Origin: Candidatus Adlerbacteria bacterium
Lineage (GTDB): Bacteria; Patescibacteriota; Minisyncoccia; Phycocordibacterales; SBAW01
NCBI GenBank assembly: GCA_903851045.1
Contig: CAINNF010000018.1
Span: forward strand, 69,925-121,959
Direction of reading: 5' to 3'
Length of the DNA: 52,035 bases
A program made the translations under genes and the position numbers. Position 1 is the first letter of the stretch, and the number at the start of each line of letters is the position of its first letter. This document shows, in pieces, positions 1 through 29,190 of this stretch. Under the pieces are notes generated by a model. That model was not told where the DNA came from and searched no databases. It was given only the letters and a program-made list of their open reading frames with translations.

Positions 1-2
1 TC

Positions 3-926
3 GGCCACCGTGTGCCGGTGTGGTACTGTACATATCCTGAAGGCGGCAAAAGCACACCAATGTGTGCTAATCCAATAATCAGTATTGAAAACGCCTCAGA
101 ATGTCCATATTGCCACGGGACCGTAGAACAAGACCCCGACACCCTCGACACGTGGTTCTCCTCTGGATTGTGGACATTTTCGACGCTCGGCTGGCCGGAT
201 GATACGCTCGACCTTAAAACATTCCATCCGACGGCACTCCTGGAAACCGGCTATGACATCCTCTTCTTCTGGGTGGCGCGTATGATACTCATGAGCGGCT
301 TCCTCGTAGGAGATGTTCCATTCAAGAATGTCTATCTCCACGGCCTCGTACGCGACGAAAAAGGCCGCAAGATGAGCAAGTCGCTTGGTAATATCATCGA
401 CCCACTCGATATGATTTCTAAATATGGCGCCGACGCGGTGCGTCTGTCACTCATCATCGGCGCAGCACCCGGTAACGACCTCAAATTGTCCGAGAATCGC
501 ATTCGTGGCTATAAGAACTTCGCTAACAAAGTGTGGAATATCACCCGATTCGTACTCGAAAACACACAGGATGCGACCGACGATGTGCCGTTTACCGAGG
601 GCGACGCTGCAATCCAACAAGAAGCGTGTGGGGCCTTCGATGCTGTCACAGCGAATATCGAAAAATATCGTCTCGATCTTGCCGCCGACCAGGTGTACCA
701 GTTCATTTGGCACCGTTTCGCCGACGAGATTCTTGAAGAAAGTAAAACGATACTTAAAACAGGCACACCCGAGGAGGTAGCTTCACGAAAGAGGCTACTT
801 ACCAACACTCTGAAGGATTCACTGAAGCTGCTACACCCGTTCATGCCGTTCGTCACCGAGGAGATCTGGAGTTCGCTGCCGAACACCGAAAACCTGTTGA
901 TGATCGAGCCTTGGCCATCAAAATAG
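3..926 (+). CDS. valS: valine--tRNA ligase, C-terminal part (5' truncated by window edge)
   Basis: GHRVPVWY, DTLDTWFSSGLW, GYDILFFWVARM, KMSKS, GADAVR and HPFMPFVTEEIW motifs of ValRS. Confidence 0.97.
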   Translation, partial: GHRVPVWYCTYPEGGKSTPMCANPIISIENASECPYCHGTVEQDPDTLDTWFSSGLWTFSTLGWPDDTLDLKTFHPTALLETGYDILFFWVARMILMSGFLVGDVPFKNVYLHGLVRDEKGRKMSKSLGNIIDPLDMISKYGADAVRLSLIIGAAPGNDLKLSENRIRGYKNFANKVWNITRFVLENTQDATDDVPFTEGDAAIQQEACGAFDAVTANIEKYRLDLAADQVYQFIWHRFADEILEESKTILKTGTPEEVASRKRLLTNTLKDSLKLLHPFMPFVTEEIWSSLPNTENLLMIEPWPSK

Positions 927-7552: not shown

Positions 7553-9478
7553 CTACTCACTCTTCACCATCTTCAAAAAGACGTCTTCGGGGATGTTGAC
7601 TCGCCCGCTCGCTTTCATTCTTGCTTTTCCTTTCTTTTGCTTCTCACGAAGTTTCATCTTGCGGGTAATGTCACCGCCGTACATGTGTTGGGTGACGTCT
7701 TTGGACATCGCCGAGAGCGTTCGGGACGAGAGTATGCGGCCGAGTGCTTGGCCTTGAATTTTGGTGGCGAACATCTGTCGCGGGAGGATGCCGTACAACT
7801 TCTCCACCGCCGCCTCGGCCTCCTCTTGGGCTCTATGCTTCGCTACGATACGCGAGAATGCAGGGACGAGGTCTTCGGCAACAAGCAGGTCGAGCCGCGC
7901 GACGTCGGCCAATCGAAGCTCCTGGAGCTGGTAGGATACCGAGCCATAGCCCGAGGAAACACTCTTTAATTTGTCGAAAAAGTTACGCATGAGTTCGCGC
8001 AGCGGCATCACCACCCTCACGATGACGCGACCCTCGGAGAACGTCTCGGTCGAATCGACCGCCGCCTCATGTTCGTAGAGCATCGGCATGAGGGAGCCAA
8101 GGTACTCCGTCGGGATGACGATCTGCGCGGTAACGTACGGCTCCCACACCTGGGCGATATCACCGAAGTCGGGAAATTGCATCGGTGAGTAGACGGTCTT
8201 TCGCTTGCCGTCCTTCGTCTCTATCTCGTACGTGATGGTCGGTGTCGTAATGACGAGGCCGATGTCGAACTCGCGGCGCAAACGCTCCGACACGATCTCC
8301 AGGTGGAGCATGCCAAGGAAACCACACCGATAGCCCCGCCCAAGCATGCCCGAGGACTCCTCTTCGTACGACAAAGAGGAGTCCGACAGCCGTAGTCGCG
8401 AAAGCGCTTGGCGCAGTGTCACGAACTCGTCTTGGCTTTCGGGATAGATACTCGCCCACACGACCGGCCGCGGCTCCGCATACCCCGGCAGCGGCGGCGT
8501 CTTTGACGCGAACGCGCGCACCGTGTCGCCCACGCGCGCCAACCCCGGTTCTTTGATGCCGGTCACTATGTAGCCGATGGAACCGGCAAAGAGGCCTTCG
8601 GAAAGCGGTGTCGGTGTCGGGGCGAAGGAGCCGACCTCGAGCGCGTTGAATTTTCTCCCCGTTGCGGAGAACTCCAACGTATCCCCTTTCTTCGCCGCAC
8701 CCTCGAACATGCGCACGTACACGATGACGCCCTGATGGTCGGAGTATTGAAAGTCAAAAATGAGCGCACGCGGATCGCTTTTGTGCCGACTAGCAGCAAC
8801 GGATTTTCCTCCACTACCGATGGATGCCGGAAAACGCTTCACAGGAAAATAGTCTGGCCGGCCGCCAGCCTGAACGGGAGATCCAAGGACTTTTTCCTGT
8901 GAAGCATTTTCCGGCACCTCTTCCGCGTTCCTCGGTGGCGGCACGCGCTGAATGACCGCTTGCAAAAGCTCTTCGACCCCCGCACCAGTGCGACCCGAAC
9001 ACAGCAAGACCTCGTCGGGCGAGATATCGAGCAGTGTCGCGACCTGAAGCACCACATCCTCCACATCCGCCAGCGGCGAATCGATCTTGGAGACCGCTGG
9101 CACTATCACGAGCCCAAGGTCGCGTGCGCTCCGAAGCGTCGTGAGCGTCTGGGCTTGTACACCCTGCGTGGCGTCCACGAGCAGTACCGCACCCTCTACC
9201 GCGGTCAGCGCACGCGAGACCTCGTAGGAGAAGTCGATGTGCCCTGGAGTGTCGATGAGGTGAAGCAGGTACTCGTCACCCCCGAGCTTGTAGCGCATCC
9301 GTACCGGCTGCATCTTGATGGTGATGCCACGCTCACGCTCCAACTCCATAGAGTCAAGCACCTGGTCGCGCATCTTGCGCTTCTCGATAGTGCCGGTCAG
9401 CTCCAAAAAGCGGTCAGCCAGCGTGGACTTGCCGTGGTCGATGTGGGCGATGATGCTGAAATTGCGTATATGCTGCAC
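7553..9478 (-). CDS. lepA: elongation factor 4 (LepA) with ~46 aa insertion
   Basis: [56 protein letters not shown]. Confidence 0.97.
8825..8916. repeat. 25-bp inverted repeat element in-frame within lepA
   Basis: TGCCGGAAAACGCTTCACAGGAAAA (8825-8849) and TTTTCCTGTGAAGCATTTTCCGGCA (8892-8916); the single mismatch is a G-U pair in the mRNA. Confidence 0.9.
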
Positions 9479-9505
9479 ACTGGGCAGTCTAGCACCTCCG
9501 CAGCA

Positions 9506-11179
9506 TTAAGACGACACCTCGGTCGCTTCCAGCGGGGTGACGAATTTCTGTCTATATCGATGATGCAGTGCGGCAGCCGCTTCGGCGAGTTCCTTATTCT
9601 TAAGCAGTACGAGCACGAGCGCCGATACGACGAGCCCAAGCAGGCCCGACGTCGCTCCCTGGAGCAGTAGTCCGAAGGTCGTGTTTATCTCGCCAGCGGT
9701 ACCGGTCAGCAAAAGCACGACATAGGTCACGAACCCACCGATCACGGACGCCGAAAAGCTTTGGAATATGAGCGTCCCGAGTGCAAGATGTGACAACTTG
9801 AAGTCCTTGAGGAAGAAACTGTATCCGACCAGAAACTCGACGATCGAACCGAACGCATAACCCAACGAGAGCATCAACACCAACGTTCCTGGCACATCGG
9901 ACACGCGCAGCACCGTTTCGACGAAATACTGCACGACCAGATTCGTCTTAAAGAGCCATAGGAGCACGAGCGAGGAAAGGACGGATACCACCACGTCGAT
10001 CATGCCGTAATATAACGGTTTCTTCGTGTTACCGGCGGCATAGTAGGCGCGAGCGATCAGTAGTGTTATCGACTGTGCCGCAAGTGACAGGATGAACAGC
10101 GCGAGCGCCGCAGCCGTCAGTCGCGTCGCTCCCCAATCGAACGCGCCAGCACCGAGGATGACGCGCACCAGCTGCGCACGCAATACGATAATGAAAACCG
10201 TCGCAGGTATCGACCAAAAAAAGATATGCCGAAGTGCCGTATCGACATATCGACCGAACTCTGCATGATCCCCCGCCGCATGAAGCCTCGCCAGGGTCGG
10301 AAACGCCGCTACCGAATAGGACACACCAATGATCGTAAGCGGCACCGCCTGCAGGTTATACGCGAACATGAACACTGTGATAGTACCTGCCGACAAGTAG
10401 GATGCGAGCGCAACCAACGCCAACAGTGATATCTGTCCCGCCGCCAGCGCGAGCGTGCGAGGGAGCGAAAGCGCTAGGACCGCGATGAACTCCTTCATTA
10501 GTGTAGGTAGCGGGAGCGGCTCTCCGGCCTTTTCTCCGGCAAAGAACGGTAATTGAACGCACAGGTGCATGAGTGCGCCGAGTACCACACCCCACCCAAG
10601 CCCCGTCACCCCCATACGGGGATACAGTGCGACGATTCCGAAGATGATGCCAAGATTATATAGAAGCGGTGAGATCGAGTAGAGGAAGAACCGACTACGC
10701 AGCTGCGTAAGCGACGCGATGATGTTGGATGCACCGAGGAATATCGGCTGCAGCAGAAGTATACGAACCAACGACACGAGTTCGCCACTTTCGAGTCCTG
10801 GAGCTATGAGATGGACGATCTGGGGTACGAAGAAAGAGACGACCAGCGAGATCGTACCCATACAGACAAAGAAGAGGAATAGGATCTGTCGCAAGAAGAC
10901 GACCATGCGCGCTTCGCTCGCCTGACCCAGACGAGACAGGACAGGCAAAAGTGCATAGAGCGACAGGAGCGAAGCGAACGTAGCGAACAGGAAGTCAGGT
11001 ACCCGGAACGCCGCATAGTAGAGATCGAGCGTGTGGGACGCGCCGAACTGCCTCGCAAGCAAGTGGTCCCGCACCAATGCCAAGAGCTGCGAACCCAGCG
11101 CAAAAGCCGCCAGAAGATAGGCGGCTTCATGCATTCCTCGCACCTCTTTTCCTATCGCACTCAGAAAGGTTCGAACCAT
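9506..11179 (-). CDS. murJ: lipid II flippase MurJ (MviN)
   Basis: [15 protein letters not shown]...[34 protein letters not shown]. Confidence 0.92.
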
Positions 11180-11188
11180 TCCCTTATC

Positions 11189-13513
11189 TTACTGCGAAAT
11201 AGGGGCAGTTGTCCTGTTTTGTGGTGTCGGAGTCACTGGAGGCTGCGCGTTCGTGAATGGATTCCTGCCAGCCTGTAGGTTGCTCAGGATCAATTTCACC
11301 TCCTGGTTGTCTGGATTGCTCGTTGCGAGATCGGTGAACTGCGTGATCGCATCAGGGGTGCGATTCTGCGCCGCATAGGAGAGCCCGAGGAAGTACTTCG
11401 CGTTCGCGTAGTCGCTTTGGAGCTTCAGCGCCTGCTCGAGCGGTACGATAGCATCCTTAGTATCACCTGCCGAGTAGTAGAGCAAACCGAGCTCGAACCA
11501 GATGGAGGGAACTCCCGGGGCGCTTTGCACCGCCGCCGTTGCAGCCTTGATCGCGCTCGGAATATCCTTCTGAGCGACATCGAGCTGCACGACATAGAGT
11601 ATCGCGTCGGTATAGTCGGGCTTCAGGGTCAGCGACTGCTGCAGCGCACTGGTCACGCCAGCGAGATTCCCTTTGACCGTTTCAAGACGAGCGACCAGGA
11701 GTGGGATCTGCGGGTTGGTCGGATTAAGCAGCTCGCCCACTTGATACATTTGCTTCGCGTTATCGTACGCGTTCGCGACTCCGAGGGAGTTGAGATAATC
11801 GTACACTCGGCCCAAAGAAACGTACACGCGGTAGTCGTTCGGGTCGAGCGCGAGCGCCGATTTGCCGAGCGGAATGATCTTTTGAGCCTCTGCGGCAAAG
11901 TCCTGCACCTGCTGCGGTGTCGGGGATGTGCCGACAGCGCCTATCTGTTGGAGTCGTGCGAGACCGGCGTCGATACCGAGTCGAAGACCATCACTTGTTT
12001 GCTCTATACCTAACGAGGACGCGGAAAAGGTCTCTGCTTGTGCCACATCACCCTGCTGCAGCGCGATGAGACCCTGGTTCGTATACACTTCCGCAACATA
12101 GCGACGCGCGACGGACTCCGCGCTCCAACCGACCAAGAGCACCAACACGATGGACGCGAAGATGATCGTCGCTTGCATGCCTTGTGACGGTGCATGCTCT
12201 GCCACACCTTCGACCTGGCGCTTGTTGAACACGAACCCTAGTGTTGCCCCGGAGAGCGCGAACGCCAAGAGCAAGATGGCGGGACTCGGCACATAAAAGA
12301 GCAGGCTTGCCCACAGATAGATCGAGCTTGTCGCAAGATAGGTCACGAACAGCTTCTCTCGCTGACCGAAGTGTGATGATCGCAACGTGTATACAAGACC
12401 GATCAATACGAGAATGAACGGCATGAACCACGCAAGAGCACCCAGCACACCAACAGAACTGAGCGCGGTAACGAAACTGCTGTATCCGACATTGAAGTCA
12501 AGGTTCCAGAACGGCGTCTGGTTGACCGAAAGAGGTTTATGTACCAACCATTCCTGACCGAACGTCTGAGGGCCGGTACCGAACACGAATCGTTCGAGTG
12601 AGGAGCCGTGCGCCGCCTTCACGACATCAAGCGACGACGCGAGGTTCGGACGAATCTCCAACGACGATACCGGGAAGATGTTCGTCAGTCCGGTGTTGAC
12701 GACCGCTCCCCACAACAGGAAGAGGGTGCTTACCAGTATCCCAATGACCGGCACCCACGGTACCTGCTTTACATAGTTTGCGGAGTCCGAAGGTCGCCTG
12801 GTCACATATGACCACAAAGCCACTATGATCGAAAAGACGAGCAGTAACGACCATATGAGGGGGAAGTTGATGATGGCGAGGAGGACGACCGACGCGATCG
12901 CAACGATCGAAGCAAAGATACGCTTTTGTAGCGACGTAATGAATTCGAGCGACAAAAGAAGCAGGAGCGGTATCAACCCTACCAGAAGACCGAGGTCGTT
13001 CCATTTGCCGACCAGGTTGACCGAATGGTCTGAGAATGCGCTCGGTAGCACCACTGAGCCGAACAGAATGACGATGAACTGAAAGACCGCCGCGAATGCC
13101 GCGGCACCCGCCAGCCCAATAAACAGCACACGAACGGACCAGAGATTCCGGAAGAGACCTATCCCGAGCACATAGACCAAGAAGCCCAAGATCACAAAAA
13201 GGACGGTATCCGACTCGATTGCGAATCCGCTAAAGCCGACCGTCCGGTCTATAGAGAAAGCATATGAGAGGAGGTATCCGATCGGAAGTATCGCTCCCAG
13301 GAGTATCAGTAACGGACTTCGTTCACGCAGGAGTGACCGCGCACCGCCGCCAACAACGAACAAAATAGAAGCGATGAACAGACATGCGGCAACTATCGCC
13401 GTCTTACCAAGCTGAAGTGGGAACCAAGGACTAGGGATGATAAATAATAATCCGAGAACAAGGCCTGCTACATAGAAGCCCTGAGCCCACGAAAGAAAAC
13501 GTGTATTGCGCAT
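11189..13513 (-). CDS. polytopic membrane protein (O-antigen ligase-like) with C-terminal TPR repeats
   Basis: About 12 TM segments with FG.GP.TF motif, followed by TPRs (ALALDPND, LTLKPDY, YANAKYFLGL). Confidence 0.8.
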   Translation of the reverse strand: MRNTRFLSWAQGFYVAGLVLGLLFIIPSPWFPLQLGKTAIVAACLFIASILFVVGGGARSLLRERSPLLILLGAILPIGYLLSYAFSIDRTVGFSGFAIESDTVLFVILGFLVYVLGIGLFRNLWSVRVLFIGLAGAAAFAAVFQFIVILFGSVVLPSAFSDHSVNLVGKWNDLGLLVGLIPLLLLLSLEFITSLQKRIFASIVAIASVVLLAIINFPLIWSLLLVFSIIVALWSYVTRRPSDSANYVKQVPWVPVIGILVSTLFLLWGAVVNTGLTNIFPVSSLEIRPNLASSLDVVKAAHGSSLERFVFGTGPQTFGQEWLVHKPLSVNQTPFWNLDFNVGYSSFVTALSSVGVLGALAWFMPFILVLIGLVYTLRSSHFGQREKLFVTYLATSSIYLWASLLFYVPSPAILLLAFALSGATLGFVFNKRQVEGVAEHAPSQGMQATIIFASIVLVLLVGWSAESVARRYVAEVYTNQGLIALQQGDVAQAETFSASSLGIEQTSDGLRLGIDAGLARLQQIGAVGTSPTPQQVQDFAAEAQKIIPLGKSALALDPNDYRVYVSLGRVYDYLNSLGVANAYDNAKQMYQVGELLNPTNPQIPLLVARLETVKGNLAGVTSALQQSLTLKPDYTDAILYVVQLDVAQKDIPSAIKAATAAVQSAPGVPSIWFELGLLYYSAGDTKDAIVPLEQALKLQSDYANAKYFLGLSYAAQNRTPDAITQFTDLATSNPDNQEVKLILSNLQAGRNPFTNAQPPVTPTPQNRTTAPISQ

Positions 13514-13568
13514 AGTGACCAGTATAGTACAGACTTATGAAAAACAAGACTCATCAATCCACAGATGC

Positions 13569-13592
13569 AAAACCCCGCCTGTTCGGCGGGGT
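13569..13592 (-). terminator. intrinsic terminator after rnpB
   Basis: ACCCCGCC-gaaca-GGCGGGGT-TTT on the minus strand just past the rnpB 3' end. Confidence 0.7.
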
Positions 13593-13609
13593 CATCGCAT
13601 ATCTAACGC

Positions 13610-14055
13610 GCGCGTCGATAAGCCGAATTCTGTTTCATCCGCTGTAGCTTGAGCGAAGGCGGATCCGCCTTCGCCGAGGCTTCGGCGGACAAGGCAACAA
13701 TTTATCTGGGCCCGATGTCACCATCGGGCTCAAGCGGTACTTCCCGGCAAGCCGGGACACGACCTTGCACCCAAGCAAGGGTTTAGCCGTTTCACCCCTC
13801 GACTTCGCTCGGGGCAAACCCCACGCTTTCGCTTGGAGTCGACCTGATTTCGTCGAGGACTCACCCCGTAAGTGACGAATCACCGCATGGGGTGCCTTCG
13901 GCTTTCGCCTCCGGCGTCTCTGCTCGCACCTCTGGTGCCCGTTAGAAGCACACGACAGGGGTTACCTGCTGCTCTGCTCCAGTGCCATAACGGCACTGGG
14001 GGTGTTCGGACTTTCCTCCCCGACCCTTACGGGTCGGAGTAGCTGCCTGACGCGC
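13610..14055 (-). ncRNA. rnpB: RNase P RNA (class A-like) with palindromic expansions
   Basis: Minus strand begins GCGCGTC..GAGGAAAGTCCGAACAC, contains GGGTGAAACGG..GCAAG and AGATAAAT, and ends AACAGAATTCGGCTTATC-GACGCGC (P4 and P1 closure). Confidence 0.93.
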
Positions 14056-14060
14056 TTGTG

Positions 14061-14567
14061 CTATTGTACCACGATTTTCTGACCGACCGCAATACCTTTG
14101 GCGGCAGTGTATCCAGCAGGCACCTCGAGCACGTACCGCGCCAATACCGATGGTCGAAACACGTTCGGGTAGGTACTCGGCGCAAGGTCTTGGTCGACCG
14201 TAACGATGGTGCCGCTCGCATCAGCCCATATGATATCTAACGAGAACAGCATGTCCTTCATCCAAAAACCTTCGCTCATTGGCGGGTCGAAGACGAACAA
14301 CATACCGGTCCCCTCCGCAAGGGACGAGCGACCGGACAAACCATCTTGCTGTTCTTGCGGTGTCGAAGCGATCTCCACCGTAAGACTATTGTTGCCTATG
14401 GTGATAGTTTTTGTTGGGAGCATGGATTGTCCGCTCGTCAAAGCTGCGGGTGGGGTCGCGACCGGTTGGACGACGGGCGTCCGCGTAGCGTAACTCAGGA
14501 CGACCACGCCGACAATCACCACCATCGCAACGACCACCACACCCGCGTTCAGTGTCTTTTTTATCAC
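14061..14567 (-). CDS. DUF192 domain protein
   Basis: VEIASTP.EQQDGLSGR, GMLFVF, FWMKDM.FSLDIIW, YVLEVPAG. Confidence 0.92.
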   Translation of the reverse strand: MIKKTLNAGVVVVAMVVIVGVVVLSYATRTPVVQPVATPPAALTSGQSMLPTKTITIGNNSLTVEIASTPQEQQDGLSGRSSLAEGTGMLFVFDPPMSEGFWMKDMLFSLDIIWADASGTIVTVDQDLAPSTYPNVFRPSVLARYVLEVPAGYTAAKGIAVGQKIVVQ

Positions 14568-14645
14568 AACAGTAGTATATCAAAAACAGATGTCCGTCGT
14601 GGCAGTATTGTATAATATGACTTTTATGGTACAATTTCACCAACG

Positions 14646-15368
14646 ATGACCCCTATCATCATAAGTATCGCAGCCGGATGTTCGACGCTCGTCGGAGGAC
14701 TGTTGGCGCTGCGTTTGCGTGACCGACTACATCTTATCCTCGGTTTTAGCGCCGGTGCGGTGGTCGCCGTCGCCTTCTTCGACCTGATGCCGGAGGCGCT
14801 GCGTTTGAGCGACACGGTGTTCGGTGTGGAAAATATCGTCTCGTGCGTGGCGCTCGGCTTCCTCCTCTATCTCCTGCTCGACCGGCTGCTGCTGCTCCAC
14901 AACCATGCGCACGAGGACCACGAACACGACGCCCCTCTCGGGCATGTACGGGCTGGTTCGCTGTCCCTCCACAGCTTTCTCGACGGCATCGGCATCGGAC
15001 TCGCCTTTCAAGTGTCGGCAGGTGTCGGCGCGGTCGTTGCGCTCGCGGTGCTAGCGCACGATTTCTCTGACGGCATCAATACCGTCAATGTCGTCGTACG
15101 CTACGGCAACGACCGCACGTCCGCCCTTCGCTGGCTTATCGTCGACGCGCTGGCACCCATCCTCGGTGTCGTCACCACTCTTTTCTTCAGACTTCCCGAA
15201 GCCGAGCTTGGCGTCTTGCTCGCCATGTTCGCAGGATTCTTCCTCTACATCGGCGCAAGCGACCTAGTACCCGAAAGTCACCACGTTCACCCCACCTTTT
15301 GGACCACCGCGATGACCATCTTTGGTGCCGCCTTTCTTTTTGCCGTGATCCGTTTAGCGAGTCTTTGA
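14646..15368 (+). CDS. ZIP family divalent metal transporter
   Basis: GFSAG, His-rich loop HNHAHEDHEH, HSFLDG, AHDFSDG, GFFLYIGASDLVPESH. Confidence 0.92.
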   Translation: MTPIIISIAAGCSTLVGGLLALRLRDRLHLILGFSAGAVVAVAFFDLMPEALRLSDTVFGVENIVSCVALGFLLYLLLDRLLLLHNHAHEDHEHDAPLGHVRAGSLSLHSFLDGIGIGLAFQVSAGVGAVVALAVLAHDFSDGINTVNVVVRYGNDRTSALRWLIVDALAPILGVVTTLFFRLPEAELGVLLAMFAGFFLYIGASDLVPESHHVHPTFWTTAMTIFGAAFLFAVIRLASL

Positions 15369-15389
15369 GCCTGACATCAATCGTACTCG

Positions 15390-17156
15390 CTATACGAACC
15401 CGTGCTTTTGGTGCTCCCACATACGTTTGAAGATGCCGTCTTCGGTGGCAAGCAGTGCTTGGGGGCTGCCACTTTCGAGTATGGTGCCCTGCTCCATGAC
15501 GATGATCCGATCCATCGCACGCAGGGTCGAAAGACGGTGCGCTATGGCGACGACCGTACTGCGGGCGAAGAGCTCTTGGAGACCGTCTTGCACCAGGGCC
15601 TCGCTTTCGCTGTCGAGCGCGCTCGTGGCCTCGTCAAGCACGAGTATGGGTGCCGCCTTCAATATCGCGCGCGCCAGCGCGATACGCTGGCGCTGCCCGC
15701 CGGAGAGCTTTACTCCTCGCTCGCCCACTTTGGTGTCGTAGCCCTGTGGCAAAGCGGCGATGAATTCGTGCGCATGCGCTTGTTCGCTCGCACGAAGCAC
15801 CTCGTCCCGTGTGGCGGACGGTCGCGCGTAGTGGATGTTCTCGAACAGTGTTCGATGAAAAAGCGAGGTGTCCTGCGGCACGTACGACACCAGCGTACGC
15901 AGTGTGTCGAGCGTCAGATCGCCAACCGGTACCCCACCCAGAGAGATGATCCCCTGCTGCGGTTCGTACTGTCGCAGCAGGAGCTTGATGAGCGTGCTTT
16001 TCCCCGCACCCGAAGCACCAACGATCCCGACCCGCTCGCCTTCGCGGATATGGAGCGAGAAGTGTGCGAACACGTCCGTACTCGTGCCTGGGTATCGAAA
16101 CCCAACATCTTCGAATACGAGGTCGCGTGGACCCTGTGTCACGCTGACAGCGCCACCCACCAGCTCGGTGTCGGACGCCTGCAAACTGTGTACCGCGTCA
16201 GAGAGTTCGCCGAACTCACGAATGACATGCATAATCATCTCCCCGAGGTTCCAGATAGCGCCGGTGAGTTGTGGAATTATGGCCGCAACAATGACGAACC
16301 CGCCGACCGTCAGTTCGCCGATCGTAAAGAGATACACGCTCACCACGACGAGCGCCGTCGCGAGCACGACGATACTGATCCCCTCTTGGAACTTGTTGCT
16401 TACGTTCGCCCAACGGGTCCGTTTTTCGACACCGACGAGTCCGCGAACCGTCGCGCGATGCAGCGACTGCTCGTGCGACACCGCACCGAACGCATGCACG
16501 AGCGGCACGTTCCCGAACGTGTCGACGATGGTGCCACTGAGTCCCGCGTGCGCACTCGCGACTTCCTGCGAGAGCCGGTGACTCCAGCGCAGGAGCGGTA
16601 TCGAACTACCGATGAAGAGCACGGACCACGCCAGGAACGTGTAGAGAAGGTACACGTGCGTTATCGCCAAGAGCACACCTGCGGAGACGAGGGCGAGCAC
16701 GACCCAGATCGTCTGCCACGGAAAGAGTTCGACGAAGAACACCGATGCGGTACCCACCTGCTGTATGCGCCTACCGAGGTCGCCTGATAGTTTGTCTTCG
16801 AAGTAGGAGGTCGGGCGTTTGAGTATACGGCTGTACAGGTCGTTCGTGATACGCTCGAACACCGACGTCGTGATGTATATCTCGCATATGTGCGCGACCC
16901 GAAAACAGATCTCGCATGCCAGCAACAACACCCCGATGGCCACCACCGGGAACAGGAACAGGTGGAACGGGGGCATCGCCGGCGCGCGGGTCGCATCGTC
17001 TACGATCATTTTAAGGAAATACGGCAAGCTATACTCGCAGGCGTTCCCCAAGGCAACGAGCGAGAACATGAGCACGATCCGCCAGCGCCACGGCGAAAGC
17101 GCGTACCCAAGGGTGCGCCACGGCGACCGCAAGAATTCGGACCGGTCCTGCATCAT
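15390..17156 (-). CDS. ABC exporter, fused permease/ATP-binding protein
   Basis: TM domain plus GASGAGKST, LSGGQRQR, LVLDEATSALD and IAHRLST; start moved to ATG 17156. Confidence 0.93.
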   Translation of the reverse strand: MMQDRSEFLRSPWRTLGYALSPWRWRIVLMFSLVALGNACEYSLPYFLKMIVDDATRAPAMPPFHLFLFPVVAIGVLLLACEICFRVAHICEIYITTSVFERITNDLYSRILKRPTSYFEDKLSGDLGRRIQQVGTASVFFVELFPWQTIWVVLALVSAGVLLAITHVYLLYTFLAWSVLFIGSSIPLLRWSHRLSQEVASAHAGLSGTIVDTFGNVPLVHAFGAVSHEQSLHRATVRGLVGVEKRTRWANVSNKFQEGISIVVLATALVVVSVYLFTIGELTVGGFVIVAAIIPQLTGAIWNLGEMIMHVIREFGELSDAVHSLQASDTELVGGAVSVTQGPRDLVFEDVGFRYPGTSTDVFAHFSLHIREGERVGIVGASGAGKSTLIKLLLRQYEPQQGIISLGGVPVGDLTLDTLRTLVSYVPQDTSLFHRTLFENIHYARPSATRDEVLRASEQAHAHEFIAALPQGYDTKVGERGVKLSGGQRQRIALARAILKAAPILVLDEATSALDSESEALVQDGLQELFARSTVVAIAHRLSTLRAMDRIIVMEQGTILESGSPQALLATEDGIFKRMWEHQKHGFV

Positions 17157-17229
17157 AGAGCCACAGTACCAAAAAGCGACCAAAGCCACCATCACCCCAT
17201 ACGGTCTCTCGTCCGTGTACAATGACCAT

Positions 17230-18696
17230 ATGCACATCGTGGCGTGGGCACACAAGCACGTCGGTATCATATTGGTCACGCTCGTGATGCTCTGGACGAG
17301 CGTCGCGGTGGTGTACCACCTTGGCACGGAGCCGCTGCAAGACTACGACGAGTCGACGTATGCCCAAGTGGCGCACGAGATACGTACCGAGCATCATCTA
17401 TGCTCGCTCACATACGCGGGCAACGCCTACGTCAGGAAGCCACCACTGTTGTTTTGGTTCATGAGCGCAAGCGGATCGGTCCTTGGTGAGACACCGTTCG
17501 ACTTGCGGCTACCGTCCGCACTATCCGGTATCGCGCTCGTCGCATTGGTCATACTGCTGGCGTTCGAGTTGTCGGGCAGCAGTATACTCGCAGCGTTCGC
17601 AGGAGCCATACTCGCGACGACCAGTCCATATATCGAAGCAGCACGGCAGGTGCGCATGGACGTGCTCGTCACCTTATGTATCGTAGCGACGGTGTACTTC
17701 TTCGTGCGAGCCATGCGTGCGCCCACACAGACCCAACAGGGATGGTTCCTGTTGTTCGGAGTCGCAGCAGGTCTCGCGATACTCGCAAAAAGCGTCATTG
17801 CGGCGTTCGCGCTCGTACCAGTGATGTGCATCATCGTCCTCTGTCGCCAACTGGCGGTACTGTGGAATAAACGACTTTGGTATGGCATCGGTGCCACCAT
17901 CTTTGTCGCGGCGCCGTGGCACATCTACGAGACCGTCCGGCTTGGGTCTGTGTTTTGGCAGCAATATATCGGAGTCGAAGTTATCGCCCGAACACACACG
18001 AACGCGTTCGGTACGGTAATAAATACCAACGACATCCTGTTGCGTTATTTTGAGCAATTCTGCCAACCCTGGCTATTGTTGTCATGTATCTCAGGCGCAC
18101 TCCTGGTGGTCGGATGGTCGACGATCGAGTGCCAGCGACGTGCGTTCGTCGTGTCATGCATCATAACGGTCACCTGTATAGCGACGCTCTTCTTCTCGAC
18201 CGCCACGAAAGCCCCGACCTACTTTCTACCACTGTACCCGTTCGCAGCGCTCGCGATCGCGCTCTCGATCCCGCCGATACCGTCTCGCCTTTTGCGAGCA
18301 CTGCTGCCGGGCGTCCTTGTGTGCCTGGTGTTGGTGGCGGCGCAGTTCACAATCTATAATGCCTATCACCTGAACCCGTACTATGCGTACACGGTCACGC
18401 TCGCACAGGAGGAATCGGTCGTCGCGGCGCTTATCAACAAGACCCCTCTCGCGACTCCCTGGTATGCGTATGGCGATGAGGAGCTCGGGAGCATCAAATT
18501 CTATACCCAGCGGCTCGATCCGCTGGCGGTGAGCGACACGAGCACACCAACACCTGGCTCCCTGATCGTCACCTACTCGAGCGCGTACGCGAATTTTTTG
18601 AAAGAGTACCCGACCATCACCACCACGACACTGTATCGAGGAAGGCACGTAACGCTCCTGCGGGTCGTTCAACCAAAAGAGATGTTCCGTAGATAG
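17230..18696 (+). CDS. ArnT/PMT-like GT-C glycosyltransferase (GT39/GT83)
   Basis: DYDESTYA, KPPLLFW, RLPSAL, R.VRMD, LAKS, PWH, K.PTYFLPLYP; start moved to ATG 17230. Confidence 0.88.
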   Translation: MHIVAWAHKHVGIILVTLVMLWTSVAVVYHLGTEPLQDYDESTYAQVAHEIRTEHHLCSLTYAGNAYVRKPPLLFWFMSASGSVLGETPFDLRLPSALSGIALVALVILLAFELSGSSILAAFAGAILATTSPYIEAARQVRMDVLVTLCIVATVYFFVRAMRAPTQTQQGWFLLFGVAAGLAILAKSVIAAFALVPVMCIIVLCRQLAVLWNKRLWYGIGATIFVAAPWHIYETVRLGSVFWQQYIGVEVIARTHTNAFGTVINTNDILLRYFEQFCQPWLLLSCISGALLVVGWSTIECQRRAFVVSCIITVTCIATLFFSTATKAPTYFLPLYPFAALAIALSIPPIPSRLLRALLPGVLVCLVLVAAQFTIYNAYHLNPYYAYTVTLAQEESVVAALINKTPLATPWYAYGDEELGSIKFYTQRLDPLAVSDTSTPTPGSLIVTYSSAYANFLKEYPTITTTTLYRGRHVTLLRVVQPKEMFRR

Positions 18697-18923
18697 ATGA
18701 ACAGCGAAAGTGTTTGTGCGCTCATGAACACGGCGTCGCGGATATGTATCGAGTACACGAGCGTAATGAGCGTGCCCACGATACTGAGATACCAGAACAC
18801 GCGAGGGATGACGACCTTTTTCTCCTTCTCGGATGCCCACCACTGCACTACGAAACGCAAAAAGAACACGAACTGACCAAAGAATCCTACCGCGAGCCAT
18901 AGATATGCGACAGGTATGGTCAT
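18669..18923 (-). CDS. lipid-A-disaccharide synthase N-terminal (LAB_N) domain protein
   Basis: GFFGQFVFFLRFVVQWWASEK.KKVVIP..FWYLS..G, RDAVF..Q, IYLRN. Confidence 0.9.
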   Translation of the reverse strand: MTIPVAYLWLAVGFFGQFVFFLRFVVQWWASEKEKKVVIPRVFWYLSIVGTLITLVYSIHIRDAVFMSAQTLSLFIYLRNISFG

Positions 18924-19013
18924 AGGAGTGTGTCAGCTCAGTATACCGCGTTCGCCCGCGACGTAAAAAGAACCGCTGTACTCGGGTGAGTACAGCGGCA
19001 GTGGAACAGACGC

Positions 19014-19679
19014 TCATGAAGATGCTTTTTTCTTCTTGCGTTTCGCTTGTATGTTGCCCGGCTTGAGCGTGCTTATGGCGCGAACAGATTTTTTCATTTT
19101 CTTGTTCTTCGTTTTCGATTTACGGACAGTATCGGTCACTCGTTCCCTTTTCGCTTTCGTCCTCGCGTTGGCCAACGTTTCGAAGGCCTCCTCGAGGACG
19201 GCGTACTTGTCCGGTCGACACTCCAGAAGCACTCTGATCTCTTCGCGCACCTGATGGATGGTGAGCCATTGATACCCAGATATCTCACTGAGATCGATCG
19301 TGAGTTCGAGCGGCCCGTCATACACGACATGAAAGAAGAAGTACCGCTTTCGGACAAGCTTACTCTTTTGCATGGACCGAACGCTTCGGGACCCACCGTA
19401 TCCGAAGACCCGAACCTGCGCCTGTTCAAAGCCGACCTCCTCCTTTGCTTCCCGAAACAGGGCTTCGAGCACCGACTCGTTCCGCTCGACCCCTCCCTTC
19501 ACGAGACCGGGGTTCCGAGGCCCGGCCTTACCGGATTCGATGAGCAGGAACTCCCCCGTCCTGGCATGCTCGATAAGCAGAACGACGGTCGCGCGATGTC
19601 GCTCGCTACCACACCTTTTCACCTGCTCACGAATACTTTTGAGCAGGTCCGCATTCAACGGTCGAAATTTCAAGGCCAT
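19014..19679 (-). CDS. NUDIX hydrolase with Lys-rich C-terminal tail
   Basis: Nudix box GGVERNESVLEALFREAKEEVG. Confidence 0.85.
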   Translation of the reverse strand: MALKFRPLNADLLKSIREQVKRCGSERHRATVVLLIEHARTGEFLLIESGKAGPRNPGLVKGGVERNESVLEALFREAKEEVGFEQAQVRVFGYGGSRSVRSMQKSKLVRKRYFFFHVVYDGPLELTIDLSEISGYQWLTIHQVREEIRVLLECRPDKYAVLEEAFETLANARTKAKRERVTDTVRKSKTKNKKMKKSVRAISTLKPGNIQAKRKKKKASS

Positions 19680-19815
19680 GCGTCAAGCCCCCGCAGCTAT
19701 CATCCATAAGCACCATACAGTATTTTACCATATTGTCAAATTTCGATCGTTGACAGAAAAAACATTGTGTAATTATATAAGACCCAGACCACAAACCAGA
19801 ACAAGGGTATGGACC

Positions 19816-20139
19816 ATGAGAACACCTGACCGCAGAAAGACGGGTGTGCTCACTTTCGAGCACACTACTTCACCGCGGCGCGAGGCACAGATAGAACTGC
19901 TGCTGCTCGCGGAGGATCCACGATTTCAGCCAAATTTCGTTTTGGGAGGACACACCCCTCCCGACATGCTTGCGGAGAACGCCCGGAGAGTGGAGCTACG
20001 ATACCGAGAACGACTACAGATACTCAAGAAGCATGGGTTGCTTGAGGAGGAACTCAAAAAGCTCCAAGAGCGAGCCGACGCTCTCAAGGCAAAACTTGCA
20101 GAAGTAGAGAAAAAGATCGCCGACCTCCAAAGCCTGTAA
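19816..20139 (+). CDS. hypothetical coiled-coil protein
   Basis: ATG 19816 after TTGACA at 19750; heptad C-terminus; followed by a terminator. Confidence 0.65.
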   Translation: MRTPDRRKTGVLTFEHTTSPRREAQIELLLLAEDPRFQPNFVLGGHTPPDMLAENARRVELRYRERLQILKKHGLLEEELKKLQERADALKAKLAEVEKKIADLQSL

Positions 20140-20156
20140 CCCAAGCCCAACACACC

Positions 20157-20191
20157 AACGCCCGAGAGTCTCCAACTCTTTCGGGCGTTTT
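20157..20191 (+). terminator. intrinsic terminator
   Basis: AACGCCCGAGAG...TTTCGGGCGTT followed by a T-rich run. Confidence 0.65.
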
Positions 20192-20289
20192 ACTTTTTAC
20201 CCATACAATCCAAGCCTAGATGAATAAGTCAGAAAGGAAAAAGGGAAAGCGCACCTAGGCGGTGGTGCGCTTTTTGTACACGAGACCCT

Positions 20290-20622
20290 TTAACGACAAT
20301 CGCGAAACCTTGGTCTCTTAGACTCGACCGTCGTCGTGTCGGTGGTGTGCTCGGTTAGTCCGCACAGTGCGCAGGTTCGCCTCCACCGGGGTGTCTCGCT
20401 CGCAGGAACATGGGTGGGAGGTCTCCAATCGACACCCATCGTCCCCACCGCGTCGCCGGGAATCGTGTACGCTCGCTGTATGATCGGGTCATAGACAGGG
20501 TCCCCGAATCTGTGCTCACAGGCTCTGTAGATGCCTGCGAGCGCGGCTCGCTTCGCCTCCAAGACTCGCTCTGCCTGCGTGATCTCAAGGCGGAGCTGGT
20601 CTGCCCGCTGCCTCGTATCCAT
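20290..20622 (-). CDS. hypothetical protein, putative Zn-binding (CxH...CxxC)
   Basis: Coiled coil then CEH...WRRTCALCG; SD GGGAGG; TTGACA-N18-TATAAA upstream. Confidence 0.7.
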   Translation of the reverse strand: MDTRQRADQLRLEITQAERVLEAKRAALAGIYRACEHRFGDPVYDPIIQRAYTIPGDAVGTMGVDWRPPTHVPASETPRWRRTCALCGLTEHTTDTTTVESKRPRFRDCR

Positions 20623-20789
20623 GACGAATTCCTCCCTGTACCAATACCTAGTGACGTTTATACATTACATATAACTATCATGTCAAGGCGTTCTTTGCGG
20701 CTGGTCGAATTTGACTGTCATACGCAGTGCTATATAGTCAACCTGGAGTAGTCTAAAGGTCCAAGACCCGTACAAAGGGAGACTGAAAT

Positions 20790-21149: not shown

Positions 21150-21169
21150 CATTGCGACACATCGCACAC

Positions 21170-21204
21170 ACTGCAGGACCCGAAAGGTGTCCTGCAGTTT
21201 TTTT
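21170..21204 (+). terminator. intrinsic terminator
   Basis: ACTGCAGGAC...GTCCTGCAGT followed by a T run. Confidence 0.75.
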
Positions 21205-21355
21205 ATATACACACGAAGGGTCGGCAGGCGTACTCTGAGGCAACATGCAAAAAAGGCGCACCGTAGTGGCGCGCCTTGTTCCGAGCATAATTCGCACATT
21301 TACAATATATATTAAAATATGTATGCTAAATTTCAGATTCACAAGGAAGACTGGC

Positions 21356-22340: not shown

Positions 22341-22369
22341 TACACCTTTCCCCTACACAACTGGAAAAG

Positions 22370-24490: not shown

Positions 24491-24549
24491 TTTTGTTTTC
24501 CCAATGTACCTTGAGGCATTATAATACAACACAAGTAAAAGTCAATGTG

Positions 24550-28083: not shown

Positions 28084-29154
28084 CTACCCAGTATACGATA
28101 CGGCGAGAAAGTCGTTGATGATCTTCTCCACCTCCTGTGCATTAGTCGTCTCCATCAACCTCATGCGAAGCTCCTTCGCGCCTGGGAATCCTTCGACGTA
28201 GGCCTTGAAGTGCTTTTTCATGATAGCGAAACTTTTGATGTCACCGAGCAGCTCTTCGTACAATGTAGTGTGCTCGACAGCAACAAGAAGTCGTGCAACA
28301 ACTTCGTCCGAGAGGGCGGCAGTATTTCCTCCACAAAAGTCCTCGGGCCGCCTCAACGCCCAGAGCGGCGTTGTAGGCTTCCAGACTTTTGCTCCAGAAA
28401 CACTGCCGCCCTCCCCCGCGAACAACCACGGCGTGCCGAAGATGGCGCGACCTATCATCACCCCGTCAGCACCGGACGCTGCCGCCTTGGTGCGTGCATC
28501 ATCCATATCCACCACATCGCCATTGCCGACGATGAGTGTCGCGCTTCCCATCTGGTCTCTGATCTCCACGGCGCGCTTCACGCGCTCCCAACGTGCGGGT
28601 ACCAGCGACATTTCCTTGCGCGTTCGCGCATGGAGAATGATCGCCGCCGGTTCGGCCTTCAGCAGGATCGGCAGCCACTCTTCCAAGATGTCTTTGTTGT
28701 ATCCCAGCCGCGTCTTCACCGACACAGGGAGACCCTTGCCGCCGCGCTTCGCCGCTTCGATGAGTTCTACCGCGCGCGCAGGGTTGAGTATCAACTTTGA
28801 TCCCGCACCCTGACCCTCGACCGACTTGTCGGGACAACCCATGTTGATGTCGATACCGTCAAAACCACGCTCATGCGCGAGCGCAGCCGCCTTCTCCATA
28901 TACTCTGGCGTCGCCGTGAAGAACTGTACGACGATTGGACGCTCCGCGTCGGTAAAGATCATGTCGCGCAGCAACACCTCTTGGTTGCCACGAAAGAGCC
29001 CATCCGCCGAGACGAACTCGGTGTACATGACGTCTGGTTTCCCATACTTCGCGATGATACGACGAAAGGCGGCATCGGTGACGTTCGCCATCGGTGCCAA
29101 CACGAAGAAGGGCTTTTGCAGCTTCGCCCAAAAATTCTCGTTCTTTCCTGACAT
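28084..29154 (-). CDS. dus: tRNA-dihydrouridine synthase with palindromic insertion
   Basis: LAPMANVTD, TEFVS, DINMGCP, SVKTRLG, HART, GNGD, GVMIGR, MKKH. Confidence 0.94.
   Translation of the reverse strand: MSGKNENFWAKLQKPFFVLAPMANVTDAAFRRIIAKYGKPDVMYTEFVSADGLFRGNQEVLLRDMIFTDAERPIVVQFFTATPEYMEKAAALAHERGFDGIDINMGCPDKSVEGQGAGSKLILNPARAVELIEAAKRGGKGLPVSVKTRLGYNKDILEEWLPILLKAEPAAIILHARTRKEMSLVPARWERVKRAVEIRDQMGSATLIVGNGDVVDMDDARTKAAASGADGVMIGRAIFGTPWLFAGEGGSVSGAKVWKPTTPLWALRRPEDFCGGNTAALSDEVVARLLVAVEHTTLYEELLGDIKSFAIMKKHFKAYVEGFPGAKELRMRLMETTNAQEVEKIINDFLAVSYTG
28312..28413. repeat. 30-bp imperfect inverted repeat element in-frame within dus
   Basis: GAGGGCGGCAGTATTTC-ctcca-CAAAAGTC and GACTTTTG-ctcca-GAAACACTGCCGCCCTC; 102 nt = 34 codons. 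Confidence 0.85.
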
Positions 29155-29190
29155 ACTCACTACCCTACCCTTATTTTTATCACTCGCCTA

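What the first reader, a model, noticed from the sequence alone, without database searches (positions are those of the whole stretch)
8771..8932. Palindromic element translated in-frame inside LepA
Seen: 54 aa between VPPP and RALIFD, where LepA normally has about 8. The insert contains a 25-bp inverted repeat (extendable via AGTC/GACT) whose only mismatch is G-U on the mRNA strand. Its loop, AGTC..GGCCGCC..TCCA..GACTTTT, and the adjacent TTTCCTCCAC match the element in dus. Known analogue: Rickettsia palindromic elements that add peptides to proteins. Inference: an undescribed family of coding-compatible mobile palindromes that target domain linkers.
Basis: partly seen in the sequence, partly recalled or inferred. 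Interest (0 to 1): 0.7.

Follow-up and report, generated by a model that had tools for sequence, protein, structure and literature searches.

The report
In-frame hairpin repeat inside LepA
The extra 45 or so amino acids in this tiny bacterium's LepA protein come from a small hairpin-forming DNA repeat that also sits, in frame, inside at least seven other essential genes, much like the palindromic elements of Rickettsia but built differently.

Summary
LepA (window 7553-9478, minus strand) has 54 aa between VPPP and RALIFD, against 7-13 aa in 19 of 28 aligned orthologues. The insert contains a 25-bp inverted repeat.

The repeated unit is not that inverted repeat but the loop. It is a 48-57-nt core bounded by AAAWRGTCTGG and CCGAGGACYTTT. 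I found 13 copies in the 1.25-Mb genome. Eight lie in frame in LepA, PolA, DnaE, ArgS, RecJ, TsaD, RecG and Dus. The core occurs in 58 of 80 genomes of the genus, whose relatives are titled Candidatus Adlerbacteria (CPR).

The long stems differ at every site and are partly inverted copies of host flanking sequence. At six gene sites, relatives carry other cores, other stems, inverted cores or nothing.

Best reading: a selfish, RPE-like, translated hairpin element whose stems are made and kept perfect by replication template switching. No mobilising enzyme was found, and no RNA or protein data exist.

"Targets domain linkers" is not shown; survival of tolerated insertions explains it as well. 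I found no paper describing this. Earlier reports of this scan noted the same phenomenon in this genome and in other CPR genomes. New variant of a known kind; interest 0.62.

The parts
7553..9478 (-). lepA (EF4) gene, 641 aa, host of the insertion
   Evidence: ORF; Pfam domains GTP_EFTU, GTP_EFTU_D2, EFG_III, EFG_C and LepA_C; orthologues in 41 of 41 relatives
8771..8932 (-). The 54 codons between VPPP and RALIFD. About 44-46 of them are extra compared with empty orthologues. They are modelled as a disordered loop.
   Evidence: Alignment. AlphaFold2 gives pLDDT below 50 for residues 189-232, while the flanking domains score 86-93.
8892..8916 (.). Outer stem arm (5' arm on the mRNA), unique to this site
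   Evidence: no other genomic copy of the arm
8825..8849 (.). Outer stem arm (3' arm on the mRNA), unique to this site
8847..8894 (+). Conserved core of the element, a shortened A type of 48 nt (9 nt shorter than the other A copies). It reads AAAATAGTCTGG ... TCCAAGGACTTTT on the plus strand. On the mRNA strand it encodes [17 protein letters not shown].
   Evidence: (78% identical to the DnaE copy)
8803..8816 (.). GGATTTTCCTCCAC motif inside the insert but outside the hairpin. It may be a remnant of an older element (GTGGAGGAAA follows the terminus in dus). Its status is uncertain.
   Evidence: the G005 LepA insert has GTGGAGGATAAA on the other side of its core; could be chance
28303..28422 (.). 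Second element of the window: a hairpin inside dus with a B-type core
   Evidence: (I2)
28335..28390 (-). Conserved core of the dus element. AAAAGTCTGG ... CCCGAGGACTTTT reads on the minus strand, which is the dus sense strand, and encodes AKVWKPTTPLWALRRPEDFC.
28084..29187 (-). dus (tRNA dihydrouridine synthase) gene, host of the second element
   Evidence: Pfam Dus at aa 21-348

Best explanation
The LepA insert is one copy of a genus-wide family of small hairpin elements that cannot move on their own.

Each element has three layers:
(1) A conserved module of 48-57 nt. It is bounded by two imperfectly inverted termini, T2 (AAAWRGTCTGG) and T1 (CCGAGGACYTTT). These are usually preceded by CTGAAG and followed by NGGAGG, which form a purine-rich internal loop.
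(2) An apical hairpin inside the module. It is nearly identical among copies within one genome (types A and B here) but differs between species.
(3) An outer stem of about 10-28 bp that differs at every site.

Proposed course of events. The module arrives at a permissive place, often one that is already a small quasi-palindrome or holds a remnant of an older element. Replication template switching between the arms then copies host flank onto the other side, keeps the arms perfectly complementary and sometimes inverts the core.

Copies that land in frame, without stops, in loops or inter-domain linkers of essential proteins survive and are translated as disordered loops. The element is most likely selfish or neutral.

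Shown here: the family, its architecture, in-frame retention, host-derived arms, compensated arm changes and turnover at the same sites.
Inferred: mobility of the module, template switching as the maker of the stems, and translation of the insert.
Unknown: the enzyme, if any, that moves the module.
For: Family and architecture:
- 13 elements with paired T2/T1 termini occur in the genome, and no orphan terminus was found.
- Seven A-type cores are 94-97% identical over 57-81 nt, while their flanking stems share nothing.
- The core matches in 58 of 80 genomes of the genus at E<=0.01; matches as short as 18 nt count.
- In 45 elements from this and about 30 other genomes the outer stems all differ. 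In the first 35 of these the median stem is 11 bp, against 4 bp at random places (95th percentile 6).

Coding compatibility:
- 8 of 13 copies lie inside long ORFs with the frame open. Five of them encode the same peptide, [11 protein letters not shown](Q/R)P..DYF.
- Every insert-bearing orthologue I examined is open and in frame: LepA 9 plus G005, Dus 13 besides ours, ArgS 3, RecJ 3, TsaD 3, DnaE 4.
- Elements have 3.4 of 6 frames free of stops, against 1.4 for shuffled copies.
- AlphaFold2 models LepA residues 189-232 as unstructured (pLDDT about 27-32) between two confident domains.

Host-derived arms:
- In RecJ the 3' arm is the conserved native coding sequence for LLPRDAF. The 5' arm (KASEEAIA), absent from the empty G022 gene, is its inverted copy with one bulge.
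- In G064 the native arm is on the other side.
- In ArgS the 5' arm aligns with native KLxxE codons of empty orthologues.

Arms evolve together:
- DnaE in G000 versus its sister G002: 7 both-arm changes and 1 other change in 20 positions.
- Copies B2 versus B3: 6 both-arm changes.

Turnover at fixed sites:
- On the LepA tree the insert state needs 8 changes, at least 4 of them forced by well-supported branches. The sister genome G002 has an empty site.
- 23 of 66 parsed LepA genes from a wider set have a long linker.
- Cores are inverted between close relatives at LepA (G005, G022), TsaD (G002) and RecJ (G005).
- A Dus gene that looks empty keeps a footprint of the element's 3' end (G061).

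Literature: template switching between inverted repeats homogenises the arms, lengthened an arm from 5 to 16 bp in one case, and inverts spacers reversibly (PMC8604942, abstract and passages). It can expand arms (PMC13100816, abstract start only).
Against: - No transposase, nuclease or longer parent element carrying these termini was found.
- There is no fixed target-site duplication. Direct repeats of 4 nt or more flank 9 of 45 elements, against 7% in controls, with no constant length.
- No empty or inverted allele of the LepA or dus element appeared in contigs of four metagenome runs, so ongoing mobility in this population is not seen.
- In LepA and dus, both arms are extra relative to empty orthologues. 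The host-flank origin of arms is therefore shown for RecJ and ArgS, not for the LepA copy itself.
- High identity of cores within a genome could come from gene conversion rather than transposition.
- Template switching is known for spacers of a few bases. Inversion of a 50-nt core is an extrapolation.
- Translation of the insert rests on frame conservation only.
Confidence: 0.6

Rival explanations
1. No transposition at all. The hairpins are produced and spread by host replication and repair alone, through template switching and ectopic gene conversion between copies. The conserved termini are simply the homology used for conversion. Sites are old, and only their contents are overwritten in each genome.
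For: - At the orthologous ArgS site the stems are similar in G000, G064 and G022, but the apical core is A type, short A type and B type respectively.
- At DnaE, the sisters G000 and G002 share termini and inner stem but differ in the apical tip.
- Cores are 94-97% alike within G000 but 72-89% alike between genomes.
- No enzyme or parent element was found.
Against: - Homology shared between copies is only about 12-18 nt on each side of the apical part. To my knowledge (recalled) this is short for RecA-type conversion.
- The state on the LepA tree is scattered, including an empty site in the sister genome.
- Conversion cannot explain the first arrival of the core in 13 unrelated places, or in 58 of 80 genomes.
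Confidence: 0.2
2. The hairpins are selected structures with a function of their own. They might act on the mRNA (ribosome pausing between domains, stability, a protein-binding site) or on the DNA (a binding or processing site). This would be why pairing is kept by compensatory changes.
For: - Stems stay paired through both-arm changes.
- The purine-rich internal loop and the termini are conserved across the genus.
- Several copies sit at domain boundaries.
- Intergenic copies could act as terminators.
Against: - Presence is scattered even between sister genomes.
- Both orientations and all three frames are used, so neither one RNA strand nor one peptide is constant.
- Template switching explains paired arms without selection.
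- No Rfam family matches. The best hits are miRNA-precursor models far below their thresholds, which is generic hairpin likeness.
Confidence: 0.12
3. The elements are REP/REPIN-like sequences moved by the two RAYT-like Y1 (HUH) transposases encoded in the genome.
For: - Two Y1_Tnp genes score above the Pfam cut-off (G000:C19:90732-91415 and 66996-67715). One shows an NHLHLL stretch that I read, from recalled knowledge of HUH enzymes, as the HUH motif. Each gene is flanked by its own palindromes.
- The element termini contain (A/G)TAGTCTG, which loosely resembles the CGTAGTCTGAC of one flanking palindrome.
Against: - The palindromes flanking these genes are different sequences: CTAACGYAGTCWGACTRCGTTAG at about 10 sites and GCAAGGCGACGCCTTGC at 2 sites.
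- Across 80 genomes the counts are: core and Y1 together 39, core only 19, Y1 only 12, neither 10. G052 has 9 core matches and no Y1 gene.
- There is no orientation bias relative to GC skew (6 to 6).
Confidence: 0.05
4. The insert is removed before or during protein synthesis, as an intron-like RNA, by RNase III cutting plus ligation, by translational bypass or by an intein-like step. LepA protein would then be of normal length.
For: A long perfect stem brings the two exon ends together. CPR bacteria are known for intervening sequences in rRNA genes (recalled, not checked here).
Against: - All insert-bearing genes seen at six sites are in frame and free of stops, in lengths from 27 to about 230 nt. 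Removal would lift that constraint.
- No intron or ribozyme family matched in Rfam.
- The peptide is far too short for an intein.
Confidence: 0.04

Closest known systems
Rickettsia palindromic elements (RPE-1 to RPE-10). Known to me through the review PMC10969869 (passages read), which cites Ogata et al. 2000 and 2002 (not read).
   Same: - Short palindromic repeats of a reduced genome.
- Many copies are inserted in frame in unrelated housekeeping genes.
- Each adds a peptide that the host protein tolerates.
- No transposase of their own.
   Different: - RPEs are about 150 bp and, per the review, each encodes a conserved peptide. Here only a 48-57-nt core with two termini is conserved, and the 10-28-bp outer stems are unique to each site and partly made of host sequence.
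- Cores are swapped or inverted at the same site between close relatives.
- The lineage is unrelated (Candidatus Adlerbacteria, CPR).
- Sequence relatedness to RPEs was not tested.
REP / REPIN sequences with RAYT (TnpA-REP) Y1 transposases (features recalled from general knowledge, no paper read)
   Same: - Short hairpin repeats with a conserved short motif next to an imperfect palindrome.
- The genome does encode two RAYT-like genes, each flanked by its own palindromes.
   Different: - REPs are extragenic, whereas these are mostly intragenic and translated.
- The termini differ from the palindromes that flank the RAYT-like genes.
- There is no co-occurrence across 80 genomes.
Classical bacterial MITEs such as Correia, ERIC, BOX and Nezha (review PMC10969869)
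   Same: Small, non-autonomous and multi-copy, with inverted termini; they can fuse in frame with host ORFs.
   Different: - No fixed target-site duplication.
- No related insertion sequence was found.
- The outermost inverted repeat is not conserved among copies.
Template-switch evolution of short inverted repeats in coding DNA (Abraham and Hazkani-Covo 2021, PMC8604942, abstract and passages read; PMC13100816 and PMC7202029, abstract starts only)
   Same: Arm homogenisation, arm lengthening, reversible spacer inversion and clustered amino-acid changes inside genes.
   Different: That process was described for spacers of 2-5 bases and arms of about 10-16 bp, without any repeated mobile core. 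Here the 'spacer' is a conserved 50-nt multi-copy module.
'Byp' elements of Magnusiomyces mitochondria and the T4 gene 60 gap (recalled, no paper read)
   Same: Small GC-rich hairpin insertions inside protein-coding genes that do not destroy the gene.
   Different: Those are skipped by the ribosome and need not be in frame. Here every copy is in frame and free of stops, which points to translation through the insert.

Membership tests
Rickettsia palindromic elements (RPE) | Multi-copy palindromic repeat of about 100-150 bp in a reduced genome | tested here: met
   13 hairpin elements of about 90-120 nt in a 1.25-Mb genome
Rickettsia palindromic elements (RPE) | Frequent in-frame insertion into unrelated housekeeping genes, giving a translational fusion | tested here: met
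   8 of 13 lie inside LepA, PolA, DnaE, ArgS, RecJ, TsaD, RecG and Dus with the frame open. Translation itself was not observed.
Rickettsia palindromic elements (RPE) | Copies of a family share a conserved sequence that encodes a conserved peptide (review PMC10969869). That the conservation runs over the element's whole length is recalled, not stated in the passages read. | tested here: not met
   Only the core is conserved (94-97% within the genome). The outer stems share nothing. The core peptide is shared by 5 copies.
Rickettsia palindromic elements (RPE) | Sequence homology to RPE-1..10 and occurrence in Rickettsiales | not tested
   No RPE sequence was at hand. The host is Candidatus Adlerbacteria by the record titles of relatives, so membership by descent is unlikely.
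Classical MITE | Conserved terminal inverted repeats at the element's outer ends | tested here: not met
   The conserved inverted termini (T2/T1) are internal. The outermost inverted repeat differs in all 45 elements.
Classical MITE | Target-site duplication of fixed length | tested here: not met
   Direct repeats of 4 nt or more flank 9 of 45 elements (7% in controls), with no constant length or position
Classical MITE | A related autonomous element with the same ends | tested here: not met
   All T1 and T2 matches in the genome (95.9% complete) are paired in short elements. No IS110 gene was found, and the Y1 genes have other ends. Relatives were not searched exhaustively.
REP/REPIN-RAYT system | The repeats flank the RAYT gene and share its recognition motif | tested here: not met
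   The palindromes flanking both RAYT-like genes differ from T1/T2
REP/REPIN-RAYT system | Co-occurrence of repeat family and RAYT across genomes | tested here: not met
   Both 39, core only 19, Y1 only 12, neither 10 of 80 genomes. Related genomes are not independent.
Self-splicing intron, ribozyme or other catalogued RNA | Match to a curated RNA family | tested here: not met
   Only generic hairpin likeness to miRNA-precursor models, far below their thresholds

The most novel reading that the evidence does not exclude
The 48-57-nt module may be a hairpin-cap transposon of a new kind. It would enter single-stranded DNA at the apex of small palindromes or of older copies, and use its own inverted termini to fold back and prime synthesis of a stem from the host's flanking sequence. 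That would explain three things:
- Every copy has a private, perfect stem partly made of host codons.
- The same codon-level sites in at least six essential genes are hit again and again across a genus.
- Cores of different types and orientations replace one another there.
Its enzyme would be an unrecognised host or element protein.
Probability: 0.2. Interest if true: 0.85.

Novelty: new variant of a known kind. Interest (0 to 1): 0.62.

Why it matters
- Coding-region palindromic elements have been treated as a near-peculiarity of Rickettsia (review PMC10969869). Here an independent, differently built family riddles the most conserved genes (replication, repair, translation) of ultra-small CPR bacteria.
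- These insertions inflate and diversify protein linkers in genomes otherwise under extreme reduction.
- They create hypervariable, structure-prone spots inside marker genes. This can break assemblies: one metagenome contig starts inside the LepA hairpin. It can also confuse alignments and phylogenies.
- They offer a natural system for studying how replication template switching builds long perfect palindromes inside essential genes.
- If a dedicated enzyme exists, it would recognise a defined hairpin with conserved bulges, which could be of interest as a tool.

Tried and rejected
- Rfam search of the LepA element and of six other copies: only sub-threshold miRNA-precursor likeness.
- Public runs: 7 DNA (pond metagenome) holders and no RNA holder listed, so expression could not be examined.
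- Laying contigs of four runs on window 8700-28600: no joint, insertion or deletion at either element. The loose ends at 8896, 28327, 28386 and 28394 are other genomic copies of the cores. No empty or inverted allele was seen.
- Target-site duplication: none of fixed length.
- Orientation against GC skew: 6 to 6.
- Orientation against transcription: 7 of 8 in-gene copies share one orientation. I did not treat this as significant.
- Candidate enzymes. The Y1_Tnp genes have other flanking palindromes and do not co-occur with the core. IS110 is absent. The single DUF559 hit is a membrane-anchored nuclease-like ORF that I took for DUF2726-like by eye (no family search), and it has no hairpin flanks.
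- An attempt to read the ArgS arm comparison in a fixed register failed because the arms were out of register.
- The B2/B3 count was wrong: I had entered the same arm twice. One search, computed from the files, replaces it.
- RecG orthologue comparison: my motif anchors found no region in four relatives, so that site remains uncompared.
- The 13th copy (G000:C17:10366-10429) could not be assigned to a gene.
- Shared 12-nt words between stems at different sites (for example GGAAAATGCTTC in G000 LepA and G083 Dus) were noted but not tested against chance.
Full report
**Observation**

LepA is the 641-aa ORF at window 7553-9478 on the minus strand. It has the usual domain order: GTP_EFTU at aa 3-181, GTP_EFTU_D2 at 250-320, then EFG_III, EFG_C and LepA_C.

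Window 8771-8932 encodes the 54 residues between VPPP and RALIFD. In 28 LepA ORFs aligned from 30 loci of related genomes, this linker is 7-13 aa in 19 and 16 aa or more in 9, ours included.

The 25-bp inverted repeat (8825-8849 / 8892-8916, 96% complementary, 42 nt apart) is real and not a chance match. As RNA the region folds at -88 kcal/mol, z = -7.0. The single mismatch is a G-U pair on the mRNA strand.

**What is repeated**

The arms have no other copy in the genome, but the loop does. The window lies in a 1.25-Mb, 25-contig assembly that is 95.9% complete. The closest public LepA records are titled Candidatus Adlerbacteria, Patescibacteria.

I found 13 elements in which a core is bounded by two termini:
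- T2 = AAAWRGTCTGG
- T1 = CCGAGGACYTTT

The termini are imperfect inverted repeats of each other, and no terminus occurs alone. The cores fall into three groups:
- Eight are of type A. Seven of these are 94-97% identical. The LepA copy is 78% identical and 9 nt shorter.
- Four are of type B, including the one in dus at window 28303-28422.
- One is of a third type.

Most copies also keep CTGAAG before T2 and NGGAGG after T1, which form a purine-rich internal loop.

Outside this module each copy has its own long, nearly perfect stem of 14-28 bp in this genome. In the 35 elements first collected from this and other genomes, the median outer stem is 11 bp, against 4 bp at random positions (95th percentile 6). 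In the 45 elements found with a looser pattern, no two stems are alike.

**Coding context**

Eight of the 13 copies lie inside long ORFs with the frame open: LepA, PolA, DnaE, ArgS, RecJ, TsaD, RecG and Dus. Four are intergenic and one is unassigned.

| Reading of the core | Genes |
|---|---|
| [11 protein letters not shown](Q/R)P..DYF | LepA, PolA, DnaE, ArgS, RecJ |
| Same orientation, another frame (KKSSG...) | TsaD, RecG |
| Opposite orientation | Dus |

A third frame is used in a relative. Elements are poor in stop codons: 3.4 of 6 frames are open, against 1.4 in shuffled copies and 2.7 in random genomic pieces.

By Pfam the positions are as follows:
- Between domain models: LepA, PolA, DnaE, RecG.
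- At a domain edge or junction: ArgS, Dus.
- Inside a domain model: RecJ (directly after the DHH motif) and TsaD.

AlphaFold2, run with a 25-sequence alignment, models LepA residues 189-232 without secondary structure at pLDDT about 27-32. The neighbouring domains score 86-93.

**Relatives**

The A core matches in 58 of 80 genomes of the genus at E<=0.01; short partial matches count. At every host site I compared, relatives show a mosaic.

- **LepA.** G022, G023, G007, G017, G004, G020, G003 and G005 carry in-frame inserts of 27-108 nt at the same place. Each is a different hairpin. G022 and G005 have the core in the opposite orientation. On a LepA tree the insert state needs 8 changes, at least 4 of them forced by well-supported branches. 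It is no more clustered than shuffled labels (364 of 500 shuffles as low). G000's sister G002 (support 97/89) has a 9-aa linker. In a wider set of 80 LepA loci, 66 could be parsed and 23 have a long linker. Seven of those show both termini and two show one.
- **Dus.** Besides ours, 13 of 29 aligned genes carry inserts at one site, with cores in either orientation. One apparently empty gene (G061) keeps the 3' end of an element as a footprint.
- **ArgS.** G000, G064 and G022 share similar stems but have an A, a short A and a B core. At least four others are empty.
- **RecJ.** G022 is empty. G000, G064 and G005 have three different elements, and G005's is inverted.
- **TsaD.** G023 is empty. G000 and sister G002 share only the inner stem and have inverted cores.
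- **DnaE.** G064 is empty. G000 and G002 share termini and inner stem but differ in the apical tip.

All insert-bearing genes seen are in frame and free of stops.

**Origin of the stems**

In RecJ of G000 the 3' arm is the native, conserved coding sequence for LLPRDAF. The 5' arm (KASEEAIA) is missing from the empty orthologue and is the inverted copy of that native sequence, with one bulge. In G064 the native arm is on the other side.

In ArgS the 5' arm aligns with native KLxxE codons of empty orthologues. The empty RecJ site is itself a small quasi-palindrome.

Arms evolve together (which replaces the faulty count):
- DnaE, G000 versus G002: 7 positions changed on both arms and 1 otherwise, out of 20.
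- B2 versus B3: 6 both-arm changes.

In LepA and dus both arms are extra relative to empty orthologues, so their origin is not directly visible. A nested history, in which the element inserted next to an older remnant, is possible but unproven.

**Mechanism**

Published work shows that polymerase template switching between inverted repeats has three effects (PMC8604942, abstract and passages; PMC13100816 and PMC7202029, abstract starts only):
- it makes arms identical;
- it can lengthen them (5 to 16 bp in one yeast gene);
- it inverts the spacer reversibly.

This accounts for the perfect private stems, the host-derived arms on either side, the compensated changes and the inverted cores. No selection for structure need be assumed.

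What it does not explain is how a 94-97% identical core came to sit at 13 unrelated places and in most genomes of the genus. That needs either transposition of the module or conversion between copies.

I found nothing that could move it:
- no orphan termini or longer parent element;
- no IS110 gene;
- a single DUF559-type hit without hairpin flanks;
- two RAYT-like Y1 genes whose flanking palindromes differ from T1/T2. Their presence across 80 genomes does not track the core: both 39, core only 19, Y1 only 12, neither 10.

There is no fixed target-site duplication and no orientation bias against GC skew. Metagenome contigs show no empty or inverted allele, and no RNA run is listed.

**Comparison with known systems**

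In its effect on genes the element resembles the Rickettsia palindromic elements (review PMC10969869, passages). It fails the membership tests of three known kinds:
- RPE: only the core, not the stems, is conserved among copies.
- Classical MITE: the outer inverted repeats are not conserved, there is no target-site duplication, and no parent element was found.
- REP-RAYT: the motif differs, there is no co-occurrence, and most copies are intragenic.

Rfam has nothing like it. Removal from the RNA, or bypass during translation, is unlikely because every copy is in frame.

**Novelty**

Three full-text searches found no paper on in-frame palindromic elements in CPR or Patescibacteria. Subscription journals and supplements were not covered.

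Earlier reports of this scan describe the same phenomenon:
- in this genome (tgt, uvrB, uvrC; e1-1022277);
- in other CPR genomes;
- in another genome at dus and tsaD, in a report that shares sequence words with this core (e1-1217343);
- in a report that proposed host-derived stems (e1-866306), which I tested here on RecJ and ArgS.

**Verdict**

The finding is a real and interesting feature. It is a new variant of the RPE kind with a three-layer architecture and rapid turnover at fixed sites. Its movement is unexplained and its translation unverified.

Noticed in passing
window 29191-29266: A 32-bp inverted repeat (88% complementary, 12 nt between the arms) lies just upstream of dus. Its inner part, GGGGTGCTGT(T/G)TATCTCCCC, recurs as a hairpin loop at G000:C19:18140-18211 and C24:8151-8218, each time with a different stem. 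This is another family of the 'conserved loop, private stem' type.
   Followed up: no
G000:C19:90732-91415 and G000:C19:66996-67715 (outside the window): Two RAYT-like Y1 (HUH) transposase genes, each flanked by its own palindromes. CTAACGYAGTCWGACTRCGTTAG occurs at about 10 sites on six contigs. GCAAGGCGACGCCTTGC occurs only at the two flanks. This looks like a small classical REP-RAYT system in a CPR genome. Y1_Tnp genes occur in 51 of 80 genomes of the genus.
   Followed up: partly
G000:C9:48394-48469 (inside argS, outside the window): ArgS carries a second in-frame hairpin of another family, with loop TCCGCTGGGCCCGTTGTTGACGCTGC. That loop also occurs at C19:89274, 93214 and 97573 with different stems.
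   Followed up: no
G000: C10:6431, C12:70071, C12:70164, C18:68098, C19:14324, C9:60674, C9:60759: Seven hairpins share a loop of the form TCCGCTGCAGG..GGGGACGCTGC and have private stems of 15-26 bp. This may be the roughly 75-nt family that an earlier report found in tgt, uvrB and uvrC. I did not check.
   Followed up: no
G000:C7:46100-46195 and 47685-47799 (polA and just after its stop codon): Two A-type copies lie 1.5 kb apart in inverted orientation and share 11 nt of outer arm (CAGGCGAATCC). The polA copy has about 45 nt of extra sequence between the core and its outer 3' arm. This hints that a local copying event can carry part of a stem.
   Followed up: no
L113 (G061 dus locus): A Dus gene of normal length keeps GGCCAGACTGATTTCCCGGTCGCATCTCGACTT, the 3' end of an element seen whole in G059 (L100). 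Some 'empty' linkers are therefore deletion footprints of elements.
   Followed up: partly
window 13633-13696: An adjacent 26+26-nt palindrome lies at 13638-13689 (I10). Two low-depth contigs of run X1 replace about 60 nt there with other letters (tables 5 and 5c). This is either a variable spot in the population or a relative's sequence.
   Followed up: no
window 40001-50000: G+C drops to 0.47-0.50, against 0.53-0.59 elsewhere in the window. It may be an island. Earlier reports mention low-GC islands next to tRNA genes in this genome.
   Followed up: no
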